Shown piece after piece: positions 46,693 to 60,525 of a stretch of DNA of 64,000 bases (its first letter is position 1; each line of letters opens with the position of its first letter). The notes beneath the pieces were generated by a model, which saw only the letters and a list, made by a program, of their open reading frames with translations, searched no databases and was not told where the DNA came from. Both the position numbers and the translations under genes were made by a program. The stretch is from Eubacteriales bacterium (GTDB lineage: Bacteria; Bacillota; Clostridia; Oscillospirales; CAG-272): the NCBI GenBank assembly GCA_045653805.1, contig JAZOMF010000075.1:123200-187199 (forward strand), in the 5' to 3' direction.

Positions 46693-48087
46693 ATGAAAGG
46701 CTTAAAAACCATATTTATCTGCTCAAACTGCAGTTATCACTCACCTAAATGGATGGGTAAATGCCCCTCTTGTTCGAAATGGAATACCTTCGTAGAGGAC
46801 GTTATAAGCACTGCTCCCGAAGAAACCGCTGTCCCCAAGAGAAAGAGTATGCTTGCAAGTAATACCGAAAACCGCGCTATATCATATAACGAGCTTGAAA
46901 TCCCCGAATACATCCGATCCAGCACCGGACTTTCCGAGCTTGACCGCGTGCTTGGCGGGGGCTTAGTTCACGGCTCTGTCGTACTAATTTCGGGTGAGCC
47001 CGGAATAGGAAAATCCACCCTGCTGATGCAGATCTCCGAGTGTCTTGGAGATAGCCGCAAGGTGCTTTACATATCGGGCGAGGAATCGGGCGGTCAGCTC
47101 AAGCTCCGCGCTAAAAGATTGGGCGTTTCGGGAAAGAATCTTTTCGTGCTCACCGAGACAAATCTCGACAGTATTCTCAAAGAAGCCGACAAGATAAAGC
47201 CCGATATTATGATAGTCGATTCTATCCAGACTATTTATGATGATGCTATTAAATCAGCTCCCGGCAGTGTTACACAGGTGCGTGAATCTGCGCTCACTCT
47301 TATTAATCGCGCCAAGACCGAGGGCATCTCAATGCTCCTCGTCGGTCACGTTAACAAAGAGGGCGGAATTGCAGGCCCTAAGGTGCTTGAGCACATGGTT
47401 GATGCAGTTCTCTGCTTTGAGGGAGAGAAGCTTCAATCCTACAGGATCATTCGCGCCAACAAAAACCGCTTTGGCTCAACTAATGAAATAGGCGTTTTTG
47501 AAATGAGCGACAAGGGTCTTATCGAGATTCCCAACCCCTCGGAAATGCTGCTTTCGGGTAGACCCAAAAACACCCCCGGCAACTGCGCCGTATGCACCAT
47601 TGAGGGCACAAGACCTATAATTGCGGAGATTCAAGCATTGGTTTCCCCCACCGCATTCCCTGCTCCCAGAAGAACCGCAAACGGCATAGATTACAATCGT
47701 CTTTGCCTGATCATTGCAGTGCTCGAAAAGCGTCTGGGCTTGAAATTTTATCAGAACGACGTTTATATGAACGTTATCGGCGGTCTTTACTTAAACGAGC
47801 CCGCAAGTGATGCCGCAATTGCTCTCGCGCTTATCTCTTCCCTCACCGACAGAGCCGTACCCGATGACCTCATCGCCATTGGAGAGCTTGGTCTTTCGGG
47901 CGAATGTCGCGCAGTGTCCAATCTTGAGCAAAGAGTCAAGGAAGCGGCTCGACTCGGGTTTACCAAAGCAGTCATCCCCGCTAAAAACATTGAAAAACGC
48001 AGCTTTGATACCGACATTCAGTTAATACCCATACAAAGCATTTACGAGGCTATAAGGGTTCTGTCACACAAAGAGTCTGCGGATTGA
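46693..48087 (+). CDS. radA: DNA repair protein RadA
   Basis: Zinc finger CSNCSYHSPKWMGKCPSCSKW, Walker A GEPGIGKST, KNRFG motif and a Lon-like C-domain. Confidence 0.95.
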   Translation: MKGLKTIFICSNCSYHSPKWMGKCPSCSKWNTFVEDVISTAPEETAVPKRKSMLASNTENRAISYNELEIPEYIRSSTGLSELDRVLGGGLVHGSVVLISGEPGIGKSTLLMQISECLGDSRKVLYISGEESGGQLKLRAKRLGVSGKNLFVLTETNLDSILKEADKIKPDIMIVDSIQTIYDDAIKSAPGSVTQVRESALTLINRAKTEGISMLLVGHVNKEGGIAGPKVLEHMVDAVLCFEGEKLQSYRIIRANKNRFGSTNEIGVFEMSDKGLIEIPNPSEMLLSGRPKNTPGNCAVCTIEGTRPIIAEIQALVSPTAFPAPRRTANGIDYNRLCLIIAVLEKRLGLKFYQNDVYMNVIGGLYLNEPASDAAIALALISSLTDRAVPDDLIAIGELGLSGECRAVSNLEQRVKEAARLGFTKAVIPAKNIEKRSFDTDIQLIPIQSIYEAIRVLSHKESAD

Positions 48088-48146
48088 AAGTATACCCCTG
48101 TTTTAAAGTTGATCCGAATTACCTAAAAACAATATTCTAATTCCCT

Positions 48147-48180
48147 TTGGGGCTTGCTTTTAAGCAAGCCCCAATTTATA
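48147..48180 (+). terminator. Intrinsic terminator after radA (left edge of the island)
   Basis: TTGGGGCTTGC-TTTTAA-GCAAGCCCCAA followed by TTTATAT. Confidence 0.8.
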
Positions 48181-48244
48181 TGTTTCAAATTTTGATTTTT
48201 TTAGCACTACATGCAAAAAATTTATAAAAACACGTCTTTCATAT

Positions 48245-48273
48245 TTGACAAGATATATTTTTTGTGGTATAAT
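48245..48273 (+). promoter_or_regulatory. Exact consensus, extended -10 sigma-A promoter of the TerB-N/ATPase/helicase operon
   Basis: TTGACA, 17 nt spacer, (TGg)TATAAT. The RBS AAAGGAGAGG follows about 25 nt downstream. Confidence 0.8.
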
Positions 48274-48311
48274 GATATATTACAGAAATACTCTTGAAAG
48301 GAGAGGAAAAT

Positions 48312-50090
48312 ATGTCTGAAAATGAAAAAAAAGACACCCAAGACCTTGATTTTTGGAATTTGGATCAATATATAAAAAAACGCCCCTCTCCTGCGCCCAT
48401 AAAGCCTTTTTCAAAAAGCTCTCTTGAGGCGGTAGAAGTGAGATCGGTAGAGAGCGGCAAAAATCAAGCAACTGTTACCCGCGAAAGTGCTTTTGGGGTC
48501 TCTCCATTCTCAAAAGCAAGCGAAAAGGTTGGAGAAGGCACTATCACGCGCTTTATCCCCCCTCACCGCGATCCCGCTTTTGCAAAAAAATACATTTTAT
48601 TTGAATATGTCCCCGAAAATCCATTGATAAAAAGTGTCAAGGTCTGCTCCGAGCGACCCGATGAAAAGGTATTTGTAGACACAAACCTTTTCATTAGAGA
48701 AAGACGCGTTATTTTGAACAAAAAGGCTTCCGAAACTCCTTACACGGCTTATTATTCCTACTCACCCAGATATTCGCAGATGAGCCGCGCGCAGCTTTCC
48801 TACTACCTTTGGTGGCGAGAAAACACGCGCAACGGCATTTTTCTTAAGGCTGACGAATCATATATAATCCTCTACGCCTACGAGCTTGCGGCAACGGGCG
48901 AGGGTGAGGACAAGGTGGCGGCACTCTCAATGCTCTGCGCACTTTTGACAAACTACACCGACAAAGAGCTGAATCCAATCTATCGCTTGATGATAAGGGA
49001 TATTTTATGTGATTTCTGCCTTATTCACGGTCTCGCGGCGCCTCGCGAGCTTTTGAGCAAGCTCAATCGCCAGTTGCTTTCAAACTCGTTTTTGCCCGAA
49101 TTTTTCATTGATCTTTCTGACGAAAACAGGTCAAGCGCACTGGAAATGGGTATATCAGCACTTTCGATGTATGATTACAGACGAAGTAAATTTTATTCCG
49201 ACGATACAAAAAAGCTTTTCAAGGATGCTATGAATGGCGCTATTGCTGCGCTTTTCTCAAATCCTGCCGCTTTTGAAACGATCACATCCTTTACAAACGG
49301 TGCTTACGGATGTGTCACCGCCGAGCGCAGACCCTTCTCTCGAATGGTCAATATCGTGAACAAAAGCATCAAGCTTGAGATCACCTACTATCAGATTTCA
49401 AATATTCAGCCCGCTGTCACCGATGCTATGCGGTATTCGGAGAACAGGATACGAGAGCATCTTGGTGTGAAGAACAAGCTCCATATTATGGGCATAAATC
49501 CTCTCGTCAAGGCGGCATTGGATGCTTATTTTGACGAACACTACCCTACCAAACCTATTATTGACAGGCGCAGAAAAAATGCCACTGTAAGCGAAGACGA
49601 GCCCCACGAATACGATCATTTTTACGATGCACCCAAGGTTGAGATCTCTCCCGAGCGAGCGCTGGAGATCGAGCGCGAATCATGGAGTACGACAAAGATC
49701 TTGACCGAGGCATTCGCAGACAGTGAAAAAGATACTATATTGAATGCTCCCGAGCTTATAATTGAACCGATATTTGATATTACAGCACCTCACAAAGAGA
49801 GTGATAAGCCCCAAATCAATGAAAATACCACCCCCGCGCATAAGACCTCCGCGCCAAGCACTCTTTTCGGTCAAATCAAGGACGAAATCGGAGAAATTGC
49901 CGAGTTTATCACTCTTTGCAAGCTGCAAAAAACAACTGAACAGCGCAAATTTGCCTTGTCGCACTCTCTTACCATTGACGAGATTGCAGACACCATAAAC
50001 GAATGCGCCGCAAATGTTTTTGGAGATATTATTCTCGAAGATGCCGGCGGATACTACACTATCATTGACGATTACATCGACCAATTCTGA
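48312..50090 (+). CDS. TerB-N / TerB-C domain protein (SngA-like)
   Basis: Start at MSENEKK (RBS AAAGGAGAGG). TerB-N-type block YYSYSPRYSQMSRAQLSYYLWWRENTRNG. C-terminal TerB-C-like block LTIDEIADTINECAANVFGDIILEDAGGYYTIIDDY. Confidence 0.75.
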   Translation: MSENEKKDTQDLDFWNLDQYIKKRPSPAPIKPFSKSSLEAVEVRSVESGKNQATVTRESAFGVSPFSKASEKVGEGTITRFIPPHRDPAFAKKYILFEYVPENPLIKSVKVCSERPDEKVFVDTNLFIRERRVILNKKASETPYTAYYSYSPRYSQMSRAQLSYYLWWRENTRNGIFLKADESYIILYAYELAATGEGEDKVAALSMLCALLTNYTDKELNPIYRLMIRDILCDFCLIHGLAAPRELLSKLNRQLLSNSFLPEFFIDLSDENRSSALEMGISALSMYDYRRSKFYSDDTKKLFKDAMNGAIAALFSNPAAFETITSFTNGAYGCVTAERRPFSRMVNIVNKSIKLEITYYQISNIQPAVTDAMRYSENRIREHLGVKNKLHIMGINPLVKAALDAYFDEHYPTKPIIDRRRKNATVSEDEPHEYDHFYDAPKVEISPERALEIERESWSTTKILTEAFADSEKDTILNAPELIIEPIFDITAPHKESDKPQINENTTPAHKTSAPSTLFGQIKDEIGEIAEFITLCKLQKTTEQRKFALSHSLTIDEIADTINECAANVFGDIILEDAGGYYTIIDDYIDQF

Positions 50091-50122
50091 TTATGCCGAG
50101 TTTCGGCAGAATGGAGATCAAA

Positions 50123-51523
50123 ATGAACGAAATTACTCAAAATAATATGCCCCAAGTGCCTCGCCGCATACTCTCTTCTCTGCTTTCCAGTATTTCTGCG
50201 GGAGTTGTACCGAGAGCGGGAGCCCCATATATTGCAATCGGCAGAAAGGATGAAATACAAGCCTTTCTATCCGATCTTGAAGAAATAAACGAGGGCGGCG
50301 GCGCTATGCGCTTTCTCATCGGTCGCTACGGAAGTGGTAAGAGCTTTCTTATCCAGCTTATCCGAGGATATGCCCTTGAGCGCGATTTTCTCACCGCAGA
50401 TTGCGACCTTTCCCCCGAGAGAAAGCTGAGCGGAAGCGGAAACAGTGCCATCGCAACATATCGCGAGCTGATGAAGAATCTTGCATCCAAGTCCTCTCCC
50501 GACGGCGGCGCTCTCCCCAAGATCATTTCCCGTTGGATAGGAAAGATTCGAGGCGACCTTATGGCGGAGGATATTTCTCCCGACGATGAAAAATTTGAGC
50601 GCGAGCTTGGCAAGCGCATCTACTCTGAGCTTTCCGACCTTGAATTTTTGGTTGGTGGCTTTGATTTTGCCCGTGTAATTTTAGAATATTACAAGGCGAG
50701 CATTTCCGACGGTGAGGAGGCTACCATTCGCATGAGCGCCTGCCTGCGCTGGCTTCGAGGCGAATATTCCACCAAGACTGAGGCTAAAAACGGACTTGGA
50801 TTCTCGGTATCGGTCATTATCAACGACGACAACTGGTACGATTTTCTCAAGCTTTGGGCGGTGCTTTCCAAGAAGATGGGCTACCGCGGACTTGTCGTGT
50901 TCATCGACGAGTGCGTAAACCTCTACAAGATTCCCCATCGAGTCAGCCGTGAGAACAACTACGAAAAGATACTTTCCATGTTCAACGATACTTTGCAGGG
51001 TCGCGCTCCCGGACTTGACATCATCTTCGGCGGCACGCCTCAATTCCTTGAGGACACACGCCGCGGTCTTTTCAGCTACGAGGCGCTTCGCTCCCGTCTT
51101 TGCGACAGCAAATTCGCACTTGAAGGATTTAAAAACCTCATCGGACCCGTTATCAGGCTGCGTCGCCTTACCGACGATGAGCTTTTCGCTCTCATTCAGC
51201 GTGTGACCGTACTTTATTCTCAATTCTACCAATGGGATTGCAGAGTTACAAACGAGGATAGACTTAAATTCCTTAATATCTGCCTCTCTCGTGCGGGTGC
51301 TGACAGTATGATAACTCCCCGTGAAATGCTCCGCGACTATATGACCGTTCTCAACATTCTGATGCAGAATCCCGAGGCAAGCTTTGATGACGTAGTAGGC
51401 AGCCACGTAACACTCAAAACTGACAAGGACTCTGACCCCGACGCGCTTTCAACCAATGAAAGCGAAGAGAGTGCCGCAAGTGCGCCCACTAAAAAATTTA
51501 CCGCTAACGATATAGAATTTTAA
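50123..51523 (+). CDS. DUF2791/BrxD-like P-loop ATPase (SngB-like)
   Basis: ISAGVVPRAGAPYIAIGRKDE...FLIGRYGSGKSFL (Walker A) and LVVFIDECVNL (Walker B). Start at MNEITQ (GGAG plus 6 nt); an ATG at 50093, 2 nt after the upstream stop, is the alternative. Confidence 0.75.
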   Translation: MNEITQNNMPQVPRRILSSLLSSISAGVVPRAGAPYIAIGRKDEIQAFLSDLEEINEGGGAMRFLIGRYGSGKSFLIQLIRGYALERDFLTADCDLSPERKLSGSGNSAIATYRELMKNLASKSSPDGGALPKIISRWIGKIRGDLMAEDISPDDEKFERELGKRIYSELSDLEFLVGGFDFARVILEYYKASISDGEEATIRMSACLRWLRGEYSTKTEAKNGLGFSVSVIINDDNWYDFLKLWAVLSKKMGYRGLVVFIDECVNLYKIPHRVSRENNYEKILSMFNDTLQGRAPGLDIIFGGTPQFLEDTRRGLFSYEALRSRLCDSKFALEGFKNLIGPVIRLRRLTDDELFALIQRVTVLYSQFYQWDCRVTNEDRLKFLNICLSRAGADSMITPREMLRDYMTVLNILMQNPEASFDDVVGSHVTLKTDKDSDPDALSTNESEESAASAPTKKFTANDIEF

Positions 51524-51558
51524 ACGCTCTGCTAAAAAGAGCCGCAAAAGGAGGATTT

Positions 51559-53907
51559 ATGACCGAAGCAGATCGCATTTTTGAGCGCTTTCCCGACTTC
51601 ATAAGAGAATATATCTACTCTCATTCTTGGGAATCTCTGCGCGCCGTTCAGGTTGCGGCAGCAAGGACTATATTTGACACCGAAAATAATCTTCTTCTCA
51701 CCTCCTCAACAGCCAGCGGCAAGACCGAGGCGGCATTCTTCCCCATCCTCTCGCTTTTAGAGGAGGATAAGCCCTCCAGCATCGGCGTGCTTTACATCGC
51801 TCCCTTGAAGAGCCTTATAAACGACCAATTTGAGCGACTTGAAGAGGTCTTGGATATGACGGGCGTTAAGGTGACCCATTGGCACGGCGACGTGGCGGCA
51901 TCTCACAAGCGCAAGCTACTTGAAAAGCCCGAGGGCATTTTGCAGATAACTCCCGAGTCCCTTGAAGCGATGCTTATCAATCGCTCCAATGATATTCCCC
52001 GTCTTTTCGGTGACCTCAGATTCGTGGTCATCGACGAGATACACACCTTAACGGGCACCGACCGAGGAAATCAGATAATCTGTCAGCTTTCCCGAATTGC
52101 TCACCTTATAGGCTATCATCCTCGCCGCATTGCCCTCTCGGCAACCATCGGTGATCCCTCTCTTGCAGCAGAATGGCTAAACGCCGACACGGGCCGCGAG
52201 ATAGACGTGCCCGAATTCGGTCAGGAGAAGATTCGCTGGAGACTTGGCCTTGAGCATTTCTACATTCAAAATCCCGAGCTTGAAAAGCTTAAAGCGGAAG
52301 AAGAAAAGGCTAAGATCGCCGACAAAAAATCAAATAAAGATGACGTACTGTTCGTAGAAAAGGTCAAAGATGCCCCAAGCGGCAACGATTATAACGGAGA
52401 CTCCGCATCATACGAAAATAACGGCTTGAAAAAGCCCTATTACATCGACCCCGGTTACGAATATGCCTACGATTGTGTAAAAGACAAAAAATCCTTGGTT
52501 TTCTCAAATTCACGAGAGGAAACCGAATACGTTTGCGCAACTCTCCGCCAGATAGCAAAATATCGAGGAGATGAAGATAGCCATATCCTCATTCATCATG
52601 GAAACCTCTCGGCGTCACTCCGTGAGGAGGCTGAAATGAAGATGCGTGACGACGAGGAATTTGCCGTCACCTGCGCTACGGTAACAATGGAGCTTGGCAT
52701 CGACATAGGTCAGCTTGAGCGAGTTATGCAGATAGAAGCGCCCAACAGTGTTTCAAGCTTTTTGCAAAGGCTGGGGCGCTCGGGCAGAAGAAGTCAGACA
52801 CCCGAAATGATGATGGTATTCCGCGAGGAGGAGGCTCTGCCCAACACACCTCTCCCACAAATCATTCCGTGGGAGCTGCTACGAGGTATAGCTATCATTC
52901 AGCTTTACATTGAAGAGCGATTTATCGAGCCGCCCTCACGCAAAAAGATGCCATTCAGTCTGCTTTTCCATCAGACGCTCTCAACTCTTGCGTCCTGCGG
53001 CGAGCTGACTCCCGCAAGGCTTGCGCAGAGAGTTCTATCTCTCCCTCCCTTTAGGTTTGTAAGCCGCGAGGACTACAAGGAGCTTATCGTTTCCATGCTC
53101 AACAACGAGTTTTTGGAAATGACCGAGGAAAAGGGTCTTATCGTGGGTCTTGTTGGCGAGAGATTGCTTAAAAGCTTTAAATTCTACGCCGTTTTCAAGG
53201 ATAGTGAGGACTTCACCGTCCGTTGCGGCTCGGATGAAATAGGCACTATAACCACCCCTCCCCCCGTGGGCGACCGATTTGCTCTTGCAGGTCGCGTTTG
53301 GGAGGTCGAAGAGCTGGACGTACAAAGAAAGCTCCTTTACGTCAAAAAGGTTGACGGAAAAATGGAGGTCTCATGGCCCGGTGACTTCGGTGAGATACAC
53401 ACCAAAATTTTGCGCCGTATGAAGCAGATACTTGAGGAGGATACAGTTTACCCATATCTCAAGGAAAACGCCGTAAAGCGCTTAAATCAGGCTCGTGCGA
53501 CCGCAAGAAACACTGGTATGCTTGAACACTCCCTGGTTCACCTTGGCGGATACTCTTGGTGCCTCTTCCCTTGGCTCGGCACTCGCTCCTTCCGCACTCT
53601 GCGCAAGTATATAAAGAAAAACGCCGCCGAAAATAATATCAGCGGCATTGAGTTCGAGGGATGCTATTACATCACCTTCAAGATGGAAAAGGTCAGCGAC
53701 ATTCAGTTTGTGTCCCGCCTGCTTGACGGCGTTGAGCGCGAGGGTATCATCTGTGAGCACCTCGTTGAAAACAGCGAGATACCCGTATTTGAAAAGTACG
53801 ACAATTATATTCCCCATTCTCTGCTCCGCAAAGCCTACGCCGCGGATAAGCTCCGCGCCGACGAGGCAGAAGAACAGATCCGACATATATTTGAAGAGTT
53901 TGAATAA
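51559..53907 (+). CDS. Lhr/BrxHI-like SF2 (DEAD/DEAH-box) helicase with ~330-aa C-terminal extension (SngC-like)
   Basis: Motif I SSTASGKTEAAF, motif II VVIDEIHTL, motif III SATIGD, motif VI QRLGRSGRR. RBS AAAGGAGG. Confidence 0.85.
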   Translation: MTEADRIFERFPDFIREYIYSHSWESLRAVQVAAARTIFDTENNLLLTSSTASGKTEAAFFPILSLLEEDKPSSIGVLYIAPLKSLINDQFERLEEVLDMTGVKVTHWHGDVAASHKRKLLEKPEGILQITPESLEAMLINRSNDIPRLFGDLRFVVIDEIHTLTGTDRGNQIICQLSRIAHLIGYHPRRIALSATIGDPSLAAEWLNADTGREIDVPEFGQEKIRWRLGLEHFYIQNPELEKLKAEEEKAKIADKKSNKDDVLFVEKVKDAPSGNDYNGDSASYENNGLKKPYYIDPGYEYAYDCVKDKKSLVFSNSREETEYVCATLRQIAKYRGDEDSHILIHHGNLSASLREEAEMKMRDDEEFAVTCATVTMELGIDIGQLERVMQIEAPNSVSSFLQRLGRSGRRSQTPEMMMVFREEEALPNTPLPQIIPWELLRGIAIIQLYIEERFIEPPSRKKMPFSLLFHQTLSTLASCGELTPARLAQRVLSLPPFRFVSREDYKELIVSMLNNEFLEMTEEKGLIVGLVGERLLKSFKFYAVFKDSEDFTVRCGSDEIGTITTPPPVGDRFALAGRVWEVEELDVQRKLLYVKKVDGKMEVSWPGDFGEIHTKILRRMKQILEEDTVYPYLKENAVKRLNQARATARNTGMLEHSLVHLGGYSWCLFPWLGTRSFRTLRKYIKKNAAENNISGIEFEGCYYITFKMEKVSDIQFVSRLLDGVEREGIICEHLVENSEIPVFEKYDNYIPHSLLRKAYAADKLRADEAEEQIRHIFEEFE

Positions 53908-53956
53908 ATTAATCTACCCCCGACAGTACTGTCGGGGGTAGACCTAAGTGCGGCTG
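53860..53956 (+). repeat. Helicase 3'-end module, copy A (in situ): last ~15 codons, stop, 12-bp GC hairpin and ACCTAAGTGCGGCTG
   Basis: Aligns base-for-base over 97 nt with 57180-57276 (about 90% identical by eye). Hairpin is CTACCCCCGACA-GTAC-TGTCGGGGGTAG at 53914-53941. Confidence 0.9.
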
Positions 53957-54030
53957 AAAAATACACATTGTTTATATATTGATTTTGTATTTTTTATGTA
54001 ATACAGTTTTTAAGGACAGTAATTCTAATT

Positions 54031-54696
54031 TTATTCCTGCTGTGCCTCTTGTGAAAATATGTTGTCTGCAATAACCTTTGCAAACTGAATGTTCAATTTG
54101 GGATATATTTCATTCATTATTTTTCTTGATTCTTCAATTTTTCCCTGCTTGAATAAAAATATGGCGTTGAGATAATTCACCATATTTTCCGTTTCGTTAG
54201 TTTCCTTTAAAGATTCATAGTAACCTTCTGCAGTTTTCAAGTCATTCTGAAGCAGATAATACATACACAACCAACTGCTTTTAAATGCTTTTCTATGCTT
54301 TACGGCATTAATATGCTTTAAAAATTTTTCGTTATCTACTTTTGCTAAAAAGGAAACAGCGAGCATTCCGTTAAGATCGTCAATTATGCGCCGCACACTT
54401 GGGAAGGGCGATGTTTTTGATATGATATAATACCATTTAGTTATTTTTTTGCCTTTTGAAATAACAACATCATAGTTTCCTGACAAATAAGCATTGTATG
54501 CTTTCATATAAAGTCCTCTTGCAACAAGACTGACTATAAAAAATATAAAGATCAGAATTAGCAAAACAAAGGGCAGTGCTATTATGGCAAGAGATCCAAA
54601 AATCGTGATGAAGGCACGAAGCAAATCTCTTATACTAATAAACAAACAGACAATAAAAACATAAATAACGTATAATATCTGATTTAACGTTTCCAT
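54031..54696 (-). CDS. Membrane-anchored helical-repeat (TPR-like) protein, paralog of 56227-56817
   Basis: ATG behind GGAGGTG. Two N-terminal TM helices. C-terminal half aligns with the paralog (FLKHINAV...LCMYYLLQNDLKTAEGYY...FLFKQGKIEESRKIMNEIYPKL...KVIADNI). Confidence 0.65.
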   Translation of the reverse strand: METLNQILYVIYVFIVCLFISIRDLLRAFITIFGSLAIIALPFVLLILIFIFFIVSLVARGLYMKAYNAYLSGNYDVVISKGKKITKWYYIISKTSPFPSVRRIIDDLNGMLAVSFLAKVDNEKFLKHINAVKHRKAFKSSWLCMYYLLQNDLKTAEGYYESLKETNETENMVNYLNAIFLFKQGKIEESRKIMNEIYPKLNIQFAKVIADNIFSQEAQQE

Positions 54697-54722
54697 ACAC
54701 ACCTCCAAAAATTAAAATTGCA

Positions 54723-54890
54723 TTAAAGTATAGGGATAACAGGATTACCCAATAGAATTGATATGGGTGCAGAGGTTACGTTACCTGCTGCATCGTAGCT
54801 GAAGGCCTCGACAGAAACTATCGAGTTATCGGAAGTCTTTCTGATCACTCTGGCAGTTACTCTGCTGAGTTCATCATAAGTATAACACAT
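54723..54890 (-). pseudogene. RHS/YD-repeat fragment (55 codons, no RBS, stop 8 codons upstream of its ATG)
   Basis: Translation is MCYTYDELSRVTARVIRKTSDNSIVSVEAFSYDAAGNVTSAPISILLGNPVIPIL. It contains two YD-repeat cores (YTYDELSRVT and FSYDAAGNVTS) at the canonical spacing. Confidence 0.6.
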
Positions 54891-54917
54891 TTTGGTCGAA
54901 CTTGCAAGTACTTAGAT

Positions 54918-54948
54918 AAAAAAACAGCCGCACCCGAAAGTGCGGCTG
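54918..54948 (-). terminator. Intrinsic terminator after the bPH-domain gene
   Basis: CAGCCGCAC-CCGAAA-GTGCGGCTG, followed by a T-run on the minus strand. Confidence 0.75.
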
Positions 54949-55010
54949 GAAAACAATGTTTTTAATACTTAATGAAAACTGTAAAGAAGCAAATTGTGTA
55001 ACTAAACTAT

Positions 55011-55529
55011 TTAATTCTTATTATCCAAAGACCTAACGTTATCTTTACAATTTAATATGAAAGACTCAATTGTACTTTGATGTTTTTTTAATACTATACC
55101 ATAAACACAATGAGTTTTAATATCAGGAAGATGAGAAATGTGCTTCTTGGCGTATATTTGGTTATTTCCGGAAAAAGTCAAATGGGCGATACCCAAAACT
55201 CGTTCGACAACATTTTGTTGCAATTCAATTTTGGTAATATTAGTTACAGTATAATGCGTTTTTACACATTTAAAACCGCTTCCTCCGGGTGTTGGAAAAG
55301 TGATGGGAGTAACATATTTTATTTTGCAGTTATCTAACTCAATATATTTGGGAAAGTTCAATGGAGAGACAATCAAATATATTAATAAAACTATGATCGC
55401 AGCTAAAACAAGATCATATCTGAATGGTCGTATCATTGCCATCACAACGGAAACAGCGAAAAGAAGTATAAATACTAAATAAAATTTCGAATTGAAAATA
55501 TTACCATATCTGCATAATTTAAGTTTCAT
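55011..55529 (-). CDS. Membrane protein with bacterial PH (bPH_2/YdbS-like) domain
   Basis: ATG behind GGGAGAAG. Two TM helices, then ITKIELQQNVVERVLGIAHLTFSG. Confidence 0.6.
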   Translation of the reverse strand: MKLKLCRYGNIFNSKFYLVFILLFAVSVVMAMIRPFRYDLVLAAIIVLLIYLIVSPLNFPKYIELDNCKIKYVTPITFPTPGGSGFKCVKTHYTVTNITKIELQQNVVERVLGIAHLTFSGNNQIYAKKHISHLPDIKTHCVYGIVLKKHQSTIESFILNCKDNVRSLDNKN

Positions 55530-55684
55530 TTTCTTCTCCCGCGACAAAAATAATAATTATGCCTTAATCAAATAGTTCTCTCAAACAAAAATTGTAATTT
55601 TTGAACTAGTTATAACGCAAATTGCTTTTATTTTTTCTAAATATATTTTGTTGCAAGCATTATCAAATGCGTTTTCTTGTATTA

Positions 55685-56131
55685 TTATGAAATTTCAACT
55701 AAGCCAAGTACAAATTGGAATGAGGTAAATCCTTCACCGTAATTATCAGAAAGATATACCATGGTTAAGTAAAGAACTTCTCCGTCAGTCAGCGTCACTG
55801 TATAGGTCGCATGCTCTTCCATGGTGTTTCCTGATGTACTGAAAGAATTTTGAACATTAAAGCTTATTTGCTCTATTGAAATGGCTTCGCGACCTGCCAA
55901 GTATCTACTCATTTGTGCGATAGCGGCATCGGAATTTTCAACTGATTGAGGGTGCATCATCTTTTTGGCATCAGACATGCTATTTTGTGCCAAAACCATC
56001 ATCATTTCCTCTACTTTAGGGAACGAGTCTACTTCGGTCGACACCCCTGACATATTTGTGTTACAAGCGCACGCCGTCCAACAGCCAAGCATAGACAACA
56101 AAATCAAAGTTAAACAGATTATTTTTTTCAT
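55685..56131 (-). CDS. Small lipoprotein of unknown function
   Basis: Lipobox MKKIICLTLILLSMLGC. 148 aa. No family assignable from memory. Confidence 0.6.
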   Translation of the reverse strand: MKKIICLTLILLSMLGCWTACACNTNMSGVSTEVDSFPKVEEMMMVLAQNSMSDAKKMMHPQSVENSDAAIAQMSRYLAGREAISIEQISFNVQNSFSTSGNTMEEHATYTVTLTDGEVLYLTMVYLSDNYGEGFTSFQFVLGLVEIS

Positions 56132-56226
56132 AGAAAATACTACCTTTAAAATTTGGTTTTTTAAATTAAGACTTTAGCAAAGAATAAATTACAAATATAA
56201 CTACTCCGACTAACATAGTAAAAATA

Positions 56227-56817
56227 TCAGCTTTTGATTACCGAATCTGCGATTTGTTTTAGTACAGGAATTGTTAGTTTATCAAATATCTCAAGCATTT
56301 TCGTTTTTGCAATCTCTTCATTTCCTTGCTTATATGCTTCGAAAGAAGTTAAAAACGTTCGTTGTACGTATGTTCTATCATCGGATGCAATCCGGGCATA
56401 GTGGGCAGATGCATTTTCAAAGTCGTTTTTGTTTAGATAGAATAACGATATCCAAAACTCTTTAATATCTATATTTAAGCTCAATTCGTTTATATGCAAT
56501 AAAAACTGATCATCATTAGATGTAGCAAAATATGAAACCGCAAGCGAAAAATGTAGATATTCCACTCTAGATAAAATCTGCTTAGTTAAGAGTCTTGCGT
56601 TATACTTCCGATAAATATGCAACAATTTCTCACCGTTTTCTATGATGTTGTTGTAATCGCCTATAACAAGTTTTTTTGTAATGTCCCGAAATCTCAACTC
56701 TAAAACAACAGAGCGAATCAACTGAAAAAATAAAATCAGAAAACATACTATCGCAGTAATTATGAGAAGGCTAGGATCAAAATGAACGGTAACATCGCCG
56801 ATCTGTGTTGTGAACAT
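56227..56817 (-). CDS. Membrane-anchored helical-repeat (TPR-like) protein, paralog of 54031-54696
   Basis: RBS GAGGT. N-terminal TM helix. Block FLLHINEL...ISLFYLNKNDFENASAHY...FEAYKQGNEEIAKTKMLEIFDKL...KQIADSV. Confidence 0.65.
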   Translation of the reverse strand: MFTTQIGDVTVHFDPSLLIITAIVCFLILFFQLIRSVVLELRFRDITKKLVIGDYNNIIENGEKLLHIYRKYNARLLTKQILSRVEYLHFSLAVSYFATSNDDQFLLHINELSLNIDIKEFWISLFYLNKNDFENASAHYARIASDDRTYVQRTFLTSFEAYKQGNEEIAKTKMLEIFDKLTIPVLKQIADSVIKS

Positions 56818-56840
56818 TATATATACCTCGCAAAATTATT

Positions 56841-56966
56841 TTAGTTTATGTTGGTAGCGGTGCTCCGCTGCCAGCCAAAGCGGAAGCCAATGCGCCTAAA
56901 GCGTAAAGTACCATAGCAACGGATCACCACTATGATAATTATTGCAATAATTTTTTTCTTGTTCAT
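56841..56966 (-). pseudogene. Truncated remnant: first 15 codons of a 57981-58538-type gene fused to unrelated sequence (41 codons)
   Basis: MNKKKIIAIIIIVVI (compare MNKRKIIAMIIIVVI at 58538), then RCYGTLRFRRIGFRFGWQRSTATNIN and a stop. It lies inside repeat copy 1. Confidence 0.6.
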
Positions 56967-57227
56967 AGCAAACCCTTTCTATAGATGAAGTTGAATTACA
57001 GATAATATGGTACCACGTATGAATTTTTGAAGAACTATTCCCATATGTTGGCTTGTATATTATATCATACATTACATTGAATGTCAATACAGCTCCCGTT
57101 AATGACTATTTATCCAAACAAAAAAATTAGCCCGCCGAGAAAATTTGAAGACAAGGCGCACCGGAGAAAGCAGGGTGCAGACGAGGCTGAAGAACAGATC
57201 AGAGCGATTTTTGAAGAATTTGAATAA
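56922..57227. repeat. ~305-bp direct repeat, copy 1 (signal-anchor codons, leader, minus-strand promoter and helicase-tail remnant)
   Basis: Collinear with 58494-58797 with scattered substitutions and 1-2-nt indels (read by eye). Confidence 0.9.
57059..57087 (-). promoter_or_regulatory. Exact consensus sigma-A promoter inside repeat copy 1
   Basis: Minus strand reads TTGACA, 17 nt spacer, TATAAT. It would drive the remnant ORF and the 56817-to-55011 genes. Confidence 0.7.
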
Positions 57228-57276
57228 ATTAATCTACCCCCGACAATACTGTCGGGGGTAGACCTAAGTGCGGCTG
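57180..57276 (+). repeat. Helicase 3'-end module, copy B (displaced)
   Basis: Encodes ...ADEAEEQIRAIFEEFE and a stop, then the same hairpin (57234-57261) and ACCTAAGTGCGGCTG as copy A. Confidence 0.9.
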
Positions 57277-57306
57277 CAAAAAATTTGATTATTGTTTGGG
57301 GATTTG

Positions 57307-57951
57307 TTAAGAAATGATATTGTTTTCTATTAGTGCATCACGAAAATTATCAGAAAGCTGATAGGCATAATTGAAATCCATATTGTGGATAAAGACATAG
57401 TAAATTTCGTCTTTTACCCAAATCTCCGCATTGATGTATAAAGAATTATGCTTTTGGGAACGCAAGCGTATTTCTTTATATTTACTATGTGAACCTTCGG
57501 CTTGTATAGTGTTTTGGGTAAAAATTTCAGAAAACTCAAATGCTATCGTTGTTCCCTCAACAATAAAAATCTCATTTTTATAGTCAAAGGTTTCTTTGAA
57601 AAAAAACACTTCTTCTTGGGGAGGAAAGATATAATCGGGAGACTCGGTTGTGTAAGAATAATAATACTGAGCGATATTAAAAGGAAAACAATAATACCAT
57701 CCCAGATCATGCCAATCTTCTTTATCGATATCTATGTGAAACATGCCGTATTTTTCACAAGAATAATATTTTTCATTTTGGTATTCCAAATAGTATACTT
57801 CCTGTTCCTCATCATAGCGGTAGTCTACATTTCGATATATATCAGTATCAAGATCGAACATTCCGGCAACCATATAATGAACATGATTACAGGATGAAAA
57901 TGACATTATAACAATTAAAAGTAATGATATCGCAATAATTCGTTTACACAT
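57307..57951 (-). CDS. Lipoprotein of unknown function (Tyr/Asp/Glu-rich)
   Basis: RBS GGAGGA. Signal MCKRIIAISLLLIVIMSFSSC. Confidence 0.6.
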   Translation of the reverse strand: MCKRIIAISLLLIVIMSFSSCNHVHYMVAGMFDLDTDIYRNVDYRYDEEQEVYYLEYQNEKYYSCEKYGMFHIDIDKEDWHDLGWYYCFPFNIAQYYYSYTTESPDYIFPPQEEVFFFKETFDYKNEIFIVEGTTIAFEFSEIFTQNTIQAEGSHSKYKEIRLRSQKHNSLYINAEIWVKDEIYYVFIHNMDFNYAYQLSDNFRDALIENNIIS

Positions 57952-57980
57952 AAGTCCTCCAAAACATTAATAAATATTTT

Positions 57981-58538
57981 TTAATCGGTATATAGCCATC
58001 TCACATATTGATAAGTCAACACTTCACCGGTTGCTTCATCCACTACAGTATATTCCATACCAACATATTCGTCTGGAACGCCGTCTATCGATTGTAAAAC
58101 AGCAATTTTTTGTAAAATTGTTTTAGCTTGTGTTCGAATTGATTGGTATTCTTCTCCATTGGGATCGGTGCCGTGTGGTATATATACTGTTAATTCTTTA
58201 AAATCAGATGAAATAGAGAAGGGCTCTTTGTCAGGATATTCCGAAAATCCTGATAACCATTCGGTTTTTTTCCACGCTTGAGCTTGATATCGTGTTATTC
58301 TCAAAGTCAATACTCCACTTTCATCTATAGAAGCTCTTTTTCTTAAATCGCCCGTTTCATCGTAAAATTCAAAATATGTATCCATAAATTCCTCGGGAGA
58401 AACTCCAAATAAGTACATACAGTGTTTAGGGGGCAAGTACAACTCAAAGTAAGTATCAATAAATATATAATTTACACAAAGAGCAGATATACAGATCACC
58501 ACTATGATAATCATTGCAATAATTTTTCTCTTGTTCAT
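57981..58538 (-). CDS. Signal-anchored protein of unknown function
   Basis: MNKRKIIAMIIIVVICISALCV..., RBS AAAGGG. It is the first gene behind the repeat copy 2 promoter. Confidence 0.6.
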   Translation of the reverse strand: MNKRKIIAMIIIVVICISALCVNYIFIDTYFELYLPPKHCMYLFGVSPEEFMDTYFEFYDETGDLRKRASIDESGVLTLRITRYQAQAWKKTEWLSGFSEYPDKEPFSISSDFKELTVYIPHGTDPNGEEYQSIRTQAKTILQKIAVLQSIDGVPDEYVGMEYTVVDEATGEVLTYQYVRWLYTD

Positions 58539-58629
58539 AGCAAACCCTTTCTATAGATGAAGTTGAATTACAGATAATAGATACCCCGTATAAATTTTTG
58601 AAGAACTATTCCCATATGTTGGCTTGTAT

Positions 58630-58658
58630 ATTATATCATACATTACATTGAATGTCAA
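58630..58658 (-). promoter_or_regulatory. Exact consensus sigma-A promoter inside repeat copy 2
   Basis: Minus strand reads TTGACA, 17 nt spacer, TATAAT, about 85 nt upstream of the ATG at 58538. Confidence 0.7.
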
Positions 58659-58749
58659 TACATCTACCGTTAATGACTATTTATCCAAACAAAAAATTAG
58701 CCCGCCGAAAATTTTCGAAGACAAGGCGCACCGAAGAAAGCAGGGTGCA

Positions 58750-58797
58750 GACGAGGCTGAGGAACAGCTCAGACGAATTTTTGAAGAATTTGAATAA
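58750..58797 (+). repeat. Helicase 3'-end module, copy C (tail codons only)
   Basis: Encodes ...ADEAEEQLRRIFEEFE and a stop. It is followed by a different hairpin from copies A and B. Confidence 0.85.
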
Positions 58798-58800
58798 CAC

Positions 58801-58837
58801 AAAACCGCTGTTGCGCCTAAGCGCAACACCGGTTTTT
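58801..58837. terminator. Bidirectional intrinsic terminator (right edge of the island / downstream of rny)
   Basis: AAAACCGCTGTTGCGC-CTAA-GCGCAACACCGGTTTT (one mismatch), flanked by A and T runs. Confidence 0.75.
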
Positions 58838-58971
58838 ATCAAATATTTTATCCGGCTGTGCCGTGGTAATAAGCCTCTGTGTTCTATGTTAAATATATGT
58901 GAATCCTTAACTGTAACTAAGGAACAAAGATTACAGAATTTTCTGTATATTTGACTTTTGCTCGTGGCAAA

Positions 58972-60525
58972 TTACTTCGCGTAGTCTACTGCGCGACTCT
59001 CACGAATGAGATTGATCTTGATCTGACCGGGATACTTAACTTCAGCCTGGATCTTCGCCGCCATCTCGCGTGCGATAACCTTCATGCCTGCGTCGTTAAC
59101 CTCCTCGGGCTTGACCATAACTCTGATCTCGCGTCCTGCCTGAATTGCAAATGCCTTGTCAATTCCGTCAAAGCTCTTTGCGATCTCCTCAAGCTTTTCA
59201 AGACGCTTGATGTAGTTTTCCATATCCTCGCGGCGCGCTCCGGGTCTTGCGGCGCTGATAGCGTCGGCAGCCTGAACGAGAACTGCGATGATGGTCTTGG
59301 GTTCAACGTCGTTGTGGTGCGCTTCGATAGCATGGACAACCTCGCGGCTTTCCTTATACTTCTTAACAGCGTTTACACCGATCTCAACGTGAGATCCTTC
59401 AACGTCGTGGGGGAATGCCTTACCGATATCGTGGGGCAGACCTGCGCGCTTTGCAAGGTTGGAGTCAACTCCAAGCTCGTCTGCCATAATACCTGCAAGG
59501 AATGCAACCTCAATAGAGTGCTTAAGTACGTTCTGACCGTAACTGGTTCTGTACTTGAGTCTACCGAGCAATCGAACAAGCTCGGGATTAATGCCGTGGA
59601 TTCCGACCTCAAAGGTAGCTCTCTCTCCCGCCTGCTTGACGGAAATATCAACTTCCTTCTGTGCTTTCTCTACCATCTCCTCAATTCTTGCGGGATGGAT
59701 TCGTCCGTCGGAGATAAGTCTCTCAAGAGCAATTCTCGCAACCTCTCGTCTAACGGGATCAAATCCCGACAGAGTGATGGTTTCGGGAGTATCGTCGATA
59801 ATAAGCTCGACACCCGTAAGTGTTTCGATCTTCTGGATGTTACGACCCTCACGACCGATAATTCTACCCTTCATTTCCTCGCTGGGCAGTGCCACGCTGG
59901 AAACGGTAGCCTCAGATACGTGATCGGACGCATATCTTTGAATGGCAAGCGACAAAATGTTCTTTGCCTTGTCGTCTGCTTCTTCCTTGAACTGTGTTTC
60001 AAGCTCGTCAAGTCTTTGTGCAAGCTCGTGCTTAACCTCGCTCTCTACGCGCTCGATAAGCTCTTCCTTAGCTCTTTCGCAGGAATATCCGGAGATCTCC
60101 TCCAGCTTTTTAAGCTGACCTTCGATTATCTCGCCTTCTTTTTGCTGAAGGGCCTCATAATCCTTGATCTTCTTATCGAGAATTTCGTTCTTCCTTTCAA
60201 GAGCCTCACTCTTTTTATCAAGTGTTTCCTCTTTCTTAGTCAAGCGGTTCTCGGTGCGAACGATCTCATTTCTTCTTTCCTTGATCTCTCGGTCAAGCTC
60301 ATTTCTCTGAGCCATAATGGTTTCCTTAGCCTCGATCAGAGATTCCTTCTTTGCGGATTCTGCACTTTTCTTAGCTTCTGCAACGATCTTTGCAGCCTCA
60401 GCCTCAGCAGAGCCTATCTTCGCTTCACCGATCTTCTTTCTGATGAGAAATCCGATAAGAAATCCGAGAGCAATACCGACAGCGGCACAACCTATGCCGA
60501 TCAGTATTACAAATTCTATTGGCAT
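58972..60525 (-). CDS. rny: Ribonuclease Y
   Basis: N-terminal TM helix, coiled coil, KH block [11 protein letters not shown] and an HD domain (HSIEVA...LPHDIGK...EAHH). Confidence 0.95.

What the first reader, a model, noticed from the sequence alone, without database searches (positions are those of the whole stretch)
53860..58797. Three diverged copies of the helicase 3' end: displaced gene tails marking serial cargo replacement downstream of the triad
Seen in sequence:
- The last ~15 codons plus stop of the helicase gene (copy A, 53860-53907) recur in the same orientation at 57180-57227 (B) and 58750-58797 (C).
- The encoded tails are DEAEEQIRHIFEEFE, DEAEEQIRAIFEEFE and DEAEEQLRRIFEEFE.
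- Most nucleotide differences are synonymous (gca/gct, cga/aga, ata/att, gag/gaa). Only two codon positions change the amino acid.
- A and B also share the 12-bp GC hairpin CTACCCCCGACA-n4-TGTCGGGGGTAG and ACCTAAGTGCGGCTG to the right. B and C share ~260 bp to the left. B is therefore a mosaic of the other two contexts.
- In copy B the frame stays open for 48 codons (57081-57227). It reads ...IYPNKKISPPRKFEDKAHRRKQGADEAEEQ..., loosely like the helicase ...NYIPHSLLRKAYAADKLRADEAEEQ....

Inference:
- The tails evolved as real coding sequence in different helicase alleles and were then displaced.
- This pattern arises when incoming DNA recombines or integrates in the 3' end of a gene and supplies its own version of that end. 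Examples are elements targeting gene 3' ends and orphan C-terminal modules in polymorphic toxin loci.
- The conserved helicase C-terminus may be the homology anchor for swapping the downstream cargo.
Basis: partly seen in the sequence, partly recalled or inferred. Interest (0 to 1): 0.7.

Follow-up and report, generated by a model that had tools for sequence, protein, structure and literature searches.

The report
Immunity-gene cassettes flanked by helicase-tail repeats
A 4.9-kb AT-rich insert next to an anti-phage helicase gene consists of two small cassettes of likely toxin-immunity genes, each bounded by a copy of the helicase's last 48 bases, and these copies appear to be the recombination points through which cassettes are gained and shuffled between species with no recombinase nearby.

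Summary
The last 15 codons plus stop of the helicase gene occur three times in direct orientation. The helicase is SngC of a Shango anti-phage system. The differences between copies are those of functional alleles.

- **It is an insertion.** Related genomes have an empty site, with the helicase tail followed directly by the rny terminator. Copy C plus its right flank reproduces that site. So 53908-58749 (30-36% GC) is an insert bounded by tail repeats.
- **It is two cassettes.** They share a 54-nt left frame (hairpin terminator) and a 309-nt right frame. The right frame holds a consensus promoter and half of a structured element, fused to the tail.
- **Cassette 2 has moved.** An independent MAG of another species carries it at 96% identity, while flanking core genes are 78-87% identical. 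There it sits at a different place in the array, again between tails.
- **The cargo is probably orphan Rhs-toxin immunity genes.** There is also a truncated Rhs stub.
- **No recombinase** was found in the insert or among 36 of the larger ORFs across the window.

Best reading: one illegitimate joint created a cassette that carries a copy of its own target. It now spreads by homologous recombination at the conserved sngC 3' end. This is a new variant of orphan-immunity and island-accretion systems. The mechanism is not proven.

The parts
48294..53907 (+). Shango anti-phage operon: sngA 48294-50090 (TerB), sngB 50093-51523 (BrxC/D-like ATPase), sngC 51559-53907 (DEAD helicase)
   Evidence: PADLOC SngA 3e-38, SngB 1e-159, SngC 1e-242; Pfam
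53860..53907 (+). Tail A: the functional last 15 codons plus stop of sngC. It forms the left boundary of the insert.
53908..53961 (.). Left frame of cassette 1: ATTAAT, the 12-4-12 GC hairpin (53914-53941), and ACCTAAGTGCGGCTG. The last piece is the 3' half of an Rhs-array spacer terminator. The hairpin scores as a minus-strand terminator.
   Evidence: a related hairpin follows intact sngC in L001 and L004
54031..54708 (-). c225: membrane protein with a weak TPR-like C-terminal region. Paralog of c196. Putative immunity gene. A homolog lies in the L105 array (89% nt identity across the module).
54723..54890 (-). Truncated 5' stub (55 codons) of an orphan Rhs/YD-repeat toxin module
   Evidence: Pfam RHS_repeat 3.8e-5; 88% nt identity to the start of an orphan Rhs ORF in L112 and L113; tblastn 6e-16 to the L107 orphan Rhs
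54925..54948 (-). Intrinsic terminator, the same one that separates modules in the Rhs arrays of L106-L111
55011..56817 (-). Cargo genes c178 (55011-55547, membrane), c148 (55685-56131, lipoprotein-like) and c196 (56227-56817, membrane, paralog of c225). No family hits.
56919..57179 (-). Right frame of cassette 1. It holds the first ~16 codons of a c185-like gene (truncated ORF 56841-56966), a 12/12 consensus promoter (57087-57059), and the 5' half of the long-hairpin element (57127-57179).
   Evidence: 13 mismatches and 2 gap columns over 261 aligned columns against 58491-58749; promoter; half-element alignment
57180..57227 (+). Tail B: orphan helicase tail at the junction between the two cassettes
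57228..57281 (.). Left frame of cassette 2 (hairpin 57234-57261)
   Evidence: 2 mismatches in 54 nt against 53908-53961
57307..58538 (-). Cassette 2 cargo: c214 (57307-57951, lipoprotein-like) and c185 (57981-58538). c185 belongs to a family encoded directly after Rhs C-terminal toxins, so it is a likely immunity protein.
58539..58749 (-). Right frame of cassette 2: leader, 12/12 consensus promoter (58658-58630), and the half long-hairpin element (58697-58749)
58750..58797 (+). Tail C: orphan tail joined to the native rny-side flank. Together they reproduce the empty-site arrangement.
   Evidence: colinear with L094, L081 and L013
58798..60525 (-). Native right flank: rny terminator (58809-58828), a conserved non-coding block, and RNase Y (58972-60525)

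Best explanation
**What it is.** The stretch between the Shango helicase gene sngC and rny is a recombination hotspot. Two small cassettes without a recombinase have accumulated there: 53908-57227 and 57228-58797.

Each cassette has a conserved frame.
- On the left is the helicase's own hairpin terminator, fused to half of a terminator from an Rhs array.
- On the right are a strong promoter, half of a structured intergenic element, and a 48-nt copy of the sngC 3' end.

The interiors hold genes taken from Rhs polymorphic-toxin arrays. These are likely orphan immunity genes.

**How it most likely works (inferred).**
1. The joint between the half element and the tail arose once, by illegitimate recombination. 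The break was near the apex of the long palindromic element, at a short microhomology with sngC. It probably happened in a genome like L087, where the complete element lies between sngC and rny.
2. That event left a cassette carrying a copy of its own target.
3. Such a cassette can enter any genome with a conserved sngC tail by homologous recombination. Two routes are possible. One is a circle, formed by tail-tail recombination, that integrates Campbell-style. The other is linear DNA that uses the sngC gene as a long arm and the orphan tail as a 48-nt short arm.
4. Each entry duplicates the tail.
5. Later exchanges inside the frame replace the cargo.

**What is shown.** The insertion, the empty site, the frames, the coding-type divergence of the tails, and the transfer and re-positioning of cassette 2.

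**What is inferred.** The recombination pathway and the immunity function.
For: **Insertion and empty site**
- Relatives carry helicase tail, then rny terminator, then rny with nothing between. These are L094 (helicase 97% aa identical), L081-86, L013, L005, L006, L011 and L045.
- Tail C plus its flank is colinear with that arrangement.
- The insert is 30-36% GC against about 48% in the flanks.

**Frames**
- The left frames of the two cassettes differ at 2 of 54 nt. The right frames differ at 13 of 259 aligned positions. The interiors are unrelated.

**Transfer and re-positioning of cassette 2**
- It is 96.2% identical over 1625 nt to L105.
- The flanking ABC, radA, Shango, rny and pmbA/tldD genes are 78-87% identical.
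- The homology begins and ends at the tails.
- In L105 it sits between sngC and the c225 module. In the window it sits after that module.

**Tails as the recombination points**
- Tails differ synonymously, as functional alleles do.
- The tail is conserved in all but four of the 120 best homologs listed.
- The crossover must lie in the tail, because C has no hairpin to its right.

**Single origin of the joint**
- All three orphan tails (B, C, L105 t2) share the identical joint between half element and tail.
- The complete element lies at this locus in L087.

**No recombinase**
- None in the insert, and none among the 36 larger window ORFs scanned with Pfam.

**Cargo**
- c185 homologs lie immediately after Rhs C-terminal toxin ORFs.
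- There is an Rhs stub in the insert.
- L105's array also has a Tox-GHH remnant followed by a SMI1_KNR4 gene.
Against: - Forty-eight nucleotides at 85-90% identity is a poor substrate for RecA. The longest perfect run between tails is about 21 nt.
- Only two genomes with orphan tails were found, so crossover positions cannot be mapped.
- No circular form, or any other intermediate, could be observed.
- A recombinase encoded elsewhere in the genome cannot be excluded.
- Sliding-window identity along sngC is mosaic but shows no clear co-transferred tract.
- The trend for tails to be more diverged than their flanks is not significant (P = 0.08 and 0.17).
- An immunity function is supported by context only for c185, and weakly for c225 and c196.
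- Both assemblies are probably short-read MAGs.
Confidence: 0.55

Rival explanations
1. The cassettes are non-autonomous integrative elements, comparable to cis-mobilisable elements (CIME) or Xer-exploiting elements (IMEX). A site-specific recombinase encoded elsewhere in the genome, or on a helper element, moves them. It recognises a core within the sngC tail. The three tails are attL, an internal att, and attR of a tandem accretion.
For: - Direct repeats of a gene's 3' end flank the insert.
- There is a precise empty site and a tandem array with an internal hybrid site.
- Transfer between species has occurred.
- The short, imperfect homology is easier for a dedicated enzyme than for RecA.
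Against: - No recombinase lies in or next to the array in either genome, and none was found among the 36 larger window ORFs scanned.
- The tail has no inverted-repeat arms or dif-like organisation (by inspection).
- All orphan tails share a single left joint, as expected from one ancestral accident rather than repeated enzymatic integration.
- No relatives were found in phage, plasmid or viral collections.
Confidence: 0.22
2. The array arose purely in place. A tandem duplication of the sngC 3' end and its downstream region was followed by divergence, deletions and gene conversion, and was then inherited vertically. The tails are passive scars and nothing is mobile.
For: - B looks like a duplication junction, with the right end of one unit joined to the left end of the next.
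- The frames of the two units are 95-96% identical.
Against: - Cassette 2 is 96% identical between genomes whose adjacent core genes are 78-87% identical.
- Module order differs between the two genomes.
- The closest relatives have an empty site.
- The tails differ mostly at synonymous sites, to near saturation (pS 0.6-0.7), while adjacent non-coding frames differ by about 4-5%.
Confidence: 0.08
3. The array is an assembly artefact. Alternative islands from co-existing strains were concatenated through shared tail and hairpin k-mers in a metagenome assembly.
For: - Repeats of 48-310 nt are present.
- The contig of close relative L087 ends 315 nt after the helicase (L094's also ends soon after it, but with an intact empty-site flank).
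- The source is probably a short-read MAG.
Against: - The copies differ every 5-10 nt in the tail. Exact shared runs across the A and B contexts are 30 nt or less.
- The junction of half element, tail and hairpin is also present in an independent assembly from another species, L105.
Confidence: 0.05
4. The orphan tails are functional. The 48-57-codon ORFs ending in the helicase C-terminus would encode decoy peptides that modulate Shango.
For: - The ORFs are open (57081-57227 and 58624-58797; also L105 9740-9913).
- The 15 tail residues are intact.
Against: - The start codon lies inside the -35 box of a divergent consensus promoter.
- There is no Shine-Dalgarno sequence (by inspection).
- The upstream frames differ between B and C because of an indel.
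- The upstream part is a truncated structured element, not coding sequence.
- No such ORF family was found in 5.8 billion proteins.
Confidence: 0.03

Closest known systems
Orphan toxin/immunity modules downstream of rhs and cdi genes (displaced C-terminal modules; e.g. Koskiniemi et al. 2014, PMC3967940)
   Same: - A conserved coding 3' segment serves as the homology anchor.
- Displaced modules keep a short piece of that conserved coding sequence.
- Arrays hold immunity genes and truncated toxin stubs.
- The cargo here is actually derived from such arrays.
   Different: - The repeated coding piece is not from the toxin gene. It comes from a convergent, functionally unrelated anti-phage helicase.
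- No full-length rhs gene heads the array.
- The cassettes carry their own promoter.
Acquired interbacterial defence clusters (AID-1/2, rAID-1) of gut Bacteroidales (Ross et al. 2019, bioRxiv 10.1101/471110)
   Same: - Consolidated arrays of orphan immunity genes with toxin-gene remnants.
- Skewed G+C content and repetitive intergenic sequences.
- Evidence of horizontal transfer in gut bacteria.
   Different: - rAID-1 is defined by an adjacent XerD-family recombinase, and AID-1/2 lie on mobile elements. Here no recombinase or mobile element was found.
- The host is a Gram-positive Clostridia MAG.
- The toxins are Rhs-type rather than T6SS effectors.
- The repeat is a gene tail.
Islands and cis-mobilisable elements accreted at the 3' end of a gene, such as ICESt1/ICESt3 and CIMEs at fda, or tRNA-gene islands (from my own knowledge)
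   Same: - The target gene's 3' end is duplicated as direct repeats.
- An empty site exists in relatives.
- Tandem arrays have an internal hybrid site.
- Members of the array lack an integrase.
   Different: - Those depend on a known tyrosine integrase and a defined core.
- Here there is no integrase, the cassettes are only 1.6-3.3 kb, and all copies share one accidental left joint.
Integron gene cassettes
   Same: - Small cassettes of one to a few genes in one orientation, separated by repeated recombination sites.
- The same cassette is found at different positions in different arrays.
   Different: - There is no intI, attI or attC-like imperfect palindrome.
- The cassettes have their own consensus promoter.
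- The repeat is a coding fragment.
Homology-facilitated illegitimate recombination and short-arm recombineering (from my own knowledge)
   Same: One long homologous anchor (sngC) plus a very short second homology would be enough to insert foreign DNA.
   Different: Here the short arm is carried permanently by the cassette and is 48 nt long, so insertion can recur and is targeted.

Membership tests
Shango defence system (context gene set) | Adjacent genes for a TerB-domain protein (SngA), an ATPase (SngB) and a helicase (SngC) | tested here: met
   PADLOC HMMs: 3e-38, 1e-159 and 1e-242. Pfam: TerB_N/TerB_C, BrxC_BrxD, DEAD/Helicase_C.
Site-specific integrative element (island / CIME accretion) | The insert is flanked by direct repeats that duplicate the target gene's 3' end, and relatives have an empty site | tested here: met
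Site-specific integrative element (island / CIME accretion) | A tyrosine or serine recombinase is encoded in or beside the element | tested here: not met
   None in the insert, none in the L105 neighbourhood, and none among the 36 larger window ORFs scanned with Pfam. A recombinase acting in trans cannot be tested.
Site-specific integrative element (island / CIME accretion) | A fixed crossover core and a circular excised form | not testable with these tools
   Only two arrays are available, and there are no reads.
Integron | intI integrase with attI and Pc next to the array | tested here: not met
   The neighbours are sngC and rny.
Integron | attC imperfect palindromes at cassette ends, and promoterless cassettes | tested here: not met
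   The repeat is a non-palindromic coding tail. The hairpin is a perfect 12-4-12 terminator that is absent at C. The cassettes have a 12/12 promoter.
Rhs orphan toxin/immunity array | A full-length rhs gene heads the array, with orphans downstream in the same orientation | tested here: not met
   Only a 55-codon stub is present. The only ORF over 1000 aa in the window is DnaE.
Rhs orphan toxin/immunity array | An immunity gene lies immediately 3' of a C-terminal toxin domain | tested here: met
   This holds for the c185 family in other contigs (L106-L115). In the window the toxin parts are deleted.
AID / rAID-1 orphan immunity cluster | An array of orphan immunity genes without cognate toxins, with toxin remnants | tested here: inconclusive
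   Context supports immunity for c185. L105's array has a Tox-GHH remnant followed by SMI1_KNR4. The other cargo has no family hits. No functional test was possible.
AID / rAID-1 orphan immunity cluster | A conserved XerD-family recombinase at one end of the cluster (rAID-1), or carriage on a conjugative element (AID-1/2) | tested here: not met
   family definition taken

The most novel reading that the evidence does not exclude
The conserved 3' end of the Shango helicase gene is the dedicated docking site of a family of recombinase-free cassettes that carry a copy of their own target as a portable homology arm. That would give gut Clostridia an integron-like platform for acquiring interbacterial immunity genes, needing only general recombination and physically coupled to an anti-phage system. 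A bolder version is that Shango's own helicase/ATPase machinery, or palindrome processing at the long-hairpin element, promotes the capture.
Probability: 0.25. Interest if true: 0.75.

Novelty: new variant of a known kind. Interest (0 to 1): 0.55.

Why it matters
**Immunity arrays outside Bacteroidales.** Orphan-immunity arrays are known mainly from Bacteroidales and Proteobacteria. There they depend on recombinases, mobile elements, or the toxin gene's own conserved core. This locus suggests that Gram-positive gut Clostridia build similar arrays in a different way.

**A simple route to targeted gene acquisition.** A single accidental fusion gave a cassette a copy of a conserved neighbouring gene's end. 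After that, ordinary recombination could insert, stack, shuffle and transfer cassettes across species boundaries. If this is general, orphan gene tails next to conserved genes could serve as a searchable signature of recombinase-free cassette platforms.

**Two kinds of defence side by side.** The locus places anti-phage defence (Shango) next to likely anti-bacterial defence (Rhs immunity) at one hotspot.

Tried and rejected
- **Protein search with the orphan ORFs.** It returned only a truncated helicase at a contig end (P0121). No ORF family exists.
- **Rfam on the hairpins and the long-hairpin element.** Only generic terminator-like sRNA hits and one insignificant attI-leader hit (E = 1.8).
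- **Phage, plasmid and viral-contig searches with the insert, the motifs, c185 and c225.** Nothing was found, so there is no evidence for a phage or plasmid vehicle.
- **Hairpin as the crossover site.** Rejected, because tail C joins the native flank directly with no hairpin.
- **Integron/attC and dif/Xer-like readings of the tail.** Rejected by inspection: no palindromic arms.
- **Recombination tract in sngC.** Sliding identity against six relatives is mosaic everywhere and uninformative.
- **'Tails more diverged than frames'.** Only a trend (P = 0.08 and 0.17), so it is not used as evidence.
- **Exact look-ups of the window's SngC and c214.** Neither is on record.
- **tblastn of cargo proteins against the 95 helicase loci.** No homologs, so the cargo is specific to this lineage and L105.
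- **NCBIfam and Pfam on the cargo.** No significant families.
- **A possible toxin 3' remnant upstream of c196 (56818-56918).** It could not be confirmed by tblastn.

Full report
**1.

The 48-nt 3' end of ORF 51559-53907 recurs in direct orientation at 57180-57227 and 58750-58797.
- A degenerate protein pattern for the tail finds one copy per helicase in the 43 of 80 related species loci where it matched at all. It never finds a second copy there, and finds three only in the window.
- A and B share 54 nt to the right, with 2 mismatches. This stretch is ATTAAT, a perfect 12-4-12 GC hairpin, and ACCTAAGTGCGGCTG.
- B and C share 261 nt to the left, with 13 mismatches and 2 gap columns.
- A vs B has 7 nt differences and 1 changed codon (P = 5e-5 under random placement).
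- A vs C has 8 differences and 2 changed codons (P = 5.5e-4).
- For both pairs pS is 0.6-0.7 against pN 0.07.
- B vs C is not significant (5 differences, 2 changed codons, P = 0.056).

**2. What the gene is**

The 'triad' is a Shango anti-phage system: SngA (TerB), SngB (ATPase) and SngC (helicase).
- radA lies upstream and RNase Y (rny, minus strand) lies downstream.
- The tail DEAEEQ-I/L-R/K-x-IFEEF-E/K is native to SngC. It is conserved in all but four of the 120 best homologs listed.
- The two residues that differ among A, B and C are the ones that vary among intact alleles.
- The B-type tail occurs in P0002, P0020 and P0027. The nearest to C is IRRIFEEFE, in P0004 and P0006.
- At nucleotide level, no intact tail in hand is closer than 5 differences to B or C.

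**3. It is an insertion into a hotspot**

In L094 (helicase 97% aa identical), L081-L086 (91%), L013, L005, L006, L011 and L045, the helicase stop codon is followed directly by the rny terminator and rny.
- Window 58747-59100 (tail C plus flank) is colinear with that empty site.
- So 53908-58749 is an insert bounded by tail repeats. It is 30-36% GC against about 48% in the flanks.
- Its ORFs longer than about 130 codons are all on the minus strand.
- Across species the sngC-rny interval varies from 0.17 to 2.7 kb. It carries unrelated low-GC cargo such as lipoproteins and AraC regulators, without orphan tails.

**4. Anatomy: two framed cassettes**

- Cassette 1 is 53908-57227 and cassette 2 is 57228-58797.
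- Both begin with the hairpin, which scores as a minus-strand terminator. A related hairpin follows intact sngC in L001 and L004.
- After the hairpin comes the 3' half of a terminator. Its complete form (54925-54948) is the spacer terminator of Rhs arrays in L106-L111.
- Both cassettes end with the same four pieces, in order:
  - the first ~16 codons of a c185-type gene;
  - its leader;
  - a 12/12 consensus promoter with extended -10, at 57087-57059 and 58658-58630;
  - about 55 nt that are the 5' half of a roughly 120-nt long-hairpin element, fused directly to the tail.
- The complete long-hairpin element lies between sngC and rny in L087, whose helicase is 96% aa identical.
- The sequence at the joint shows a short microhomology (AAGC...GCGC.G.CG) between the element and the sngC sequence just upstream of the tail.
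- The same joint occurs in B, C and the L105 orphan tail, so it arose once.

**5. Cassette 2 has moved**

L105 (GCA_045538195.1) is an independent MAG with the same synteny: ABC, radA, sngABC, array, rny, pmbA/tldD.
- In window orientation it reads:
  - sngC with its own tail;
  - hairpin, c214, c185, promoter, half element;
  - an orphan tail;
  - hairpin, c225 homolog, SMI1_KNR4, Tox-GHH remnant, then rny.
- Cassette 2 is 96.2% identical over 1625 nt, and that homology starts and stops at the tails.
- The flanking core genes are only 77.6-87.2% identical.
- The order of cassette 2 and the c225 module is reversed between the two genomes.
- This argues for recent transfer between species and for the tails as the joints of rearrangement. 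It also argues against an artefact private to one assembly.

**6. Cargo**

- c185 homologs at 61-78% identity sit immediately after Rhs/YD-shell ORFs with C-terminal toxin domains, in several contigs.
- ORF 54723-54890 is the truncated start of an orphan Rhs module.
- c225 and c196 are paralogous membrane proteins with weak TPR-like signals.
- c214, c148 and c178 have no family hits.
- The L105 array adds a Tox-GHH remnant followed by a SMI1_KNR4 immunity gene.
- The cargo is best read as orphan immunity genes taken from Rhs arrays. This is inferred from context for c185, weaker for c225 and c196, and unknown for the rest.

**7. Mechanism**

- No recombinase lies in the insert, in the L105 neighbourhood, or among the 36 larger window ORFs scanned with Pfam. 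Of the 30 ORFs scanned upstream of 44 kb, the 26 with a hit are ordinary chromosomal genes, mostly housekeeping, and four had no family hit.
- The crossover must lie within the 48-nt tail, because C lacks the hairpin.
- I favour homology-driven spread at 0.55:
  - a palindrome-associated illegitimate event created a cassette bearing a copy of the sngC tail;
  - it then inserts downstream of any conserved sngC;
  - it does so either as a circle (Campbell-type) or as linear DNA, with sngC as the long arm and the orphan tail as the short arm;
  - later exchanges replace the cargo inside the frame.
- The main rival, at 0.22, is a site-specific recombinase acting in trans. It cannot be excluded, because only two arrays are available and the homology is short and imperfect.
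- In-place duplication alone (0.08) is contradicted by the excess identity of cassette 2 and the swapped module order.
- Assembly artefact (0.05) is made unlikely by L105.
- A decoy-peptide function for the orphan ORFs (0.03) is unlikely:
  - the start codon lies inside a promoter -35 box;
  - the upstream frames differ between B and C;
  - no such ORF family exists.

**8. Comparison and novelty**

The logic matches displaced orphan modules of rhs and cdi loci, and island accretion at gene 3' ends. The content matches the AID/rAID-1 orphan-immunity clusters of Bacteroidales.

It fails defining features of each family:
- there is no recombinase or conjugative element;
- there is no heading rhs gene;
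- there is no intI or attC.

The repeated coding fragment comes from a convergent, unrelated anti-phage gene. I rate it a new variant of a known kind, with interest 0.55. It is a clean, testable natural example of a cassette carrying its own homology arm, but it rests on two short-read assemblies and the mechanism is unproven.

Noticed in passing
L087 8790-8924 (+); L105 583-719 (-); L096, L098, L099, L101, L103, L104; window halves 57127-57179 and 58697-58749: A long imperfect hairpin of about 120-135 nt with an invariant core (AAGGCGCACCGNAGAAAGCAAGGCG ... AGCCGCTTTCGAGGAGCAACG) and covarying outer and apical stems. It recurs in unrelated intergenic sites of low- and high-GC contigs. The fold has z = -7, and 12 of 34 pairs show compensatory changes. 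A covariance model finds a second complete copy between mutL and tgt in L105. No Rfam 15 family matches. It may be an undescribed structured RNA or a dispersed palindromic element.
   Followed up: partly
window 58836-58971: A non-coding block of about 130 nt between the rny stop codon and its terminator is conserved at 76-95% across species, while the sequence beyond it is hypervariable. It could be a structured rny 3' UTR or a small RNA. Rfam gives no hit.
   Followed up: no
L087 3882-6263: In this close relative a 793-aa ORF (Lipase_GDSL, weak Peptidase_M73) sits between sngB and sngC, interrupting the Shango operon.
   Followed up: no
P0007 (helicase homolog, 92% identical overall): Its last ~70 residues come from a distant allele (...LDPAVAAARLLEIESEY). 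This shows recombination breakpoints inside the sngC 3' region in natural populations.
   Followed up: no
L081/L082 1-6562; L088 1-6351: Two giant ORFs (1573-1935 aa, no Pfam hit) lie upstream of Shango where the window and L105 have radA. The left side of the Shango locus is therefore variable too.
   Followed up: no
L089 2560-2740: AT-rich tandem repeats with a unit of roughly 40 nt (ttattcgaaattttttcaaaaaagaatatttt...) fill part of the 547-nt sngC-rny spacer in the P0005 lineage.
   Followed up: no
window 46693-60525 and loci L001-L023, L105: Shango is syntenic with rny, and in 12 loci also with radA, across many species whose helicases are 71-93% identical. A chromosomal position this stable is unusual for a defence system.
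   Followed up: partly
window 56818-56918 (minus strand): The segment between the truncated c185-like start and c196 reads, in one frame...AMVLYALGALASALAGSGAPLPT*. It resembles the Gly/Ala-rich C-terminal ends of the Rhs toxins in L107 and L112, so it may be a toxin 3' remnant. tblastn did not confirm this.
   Followed up: partly
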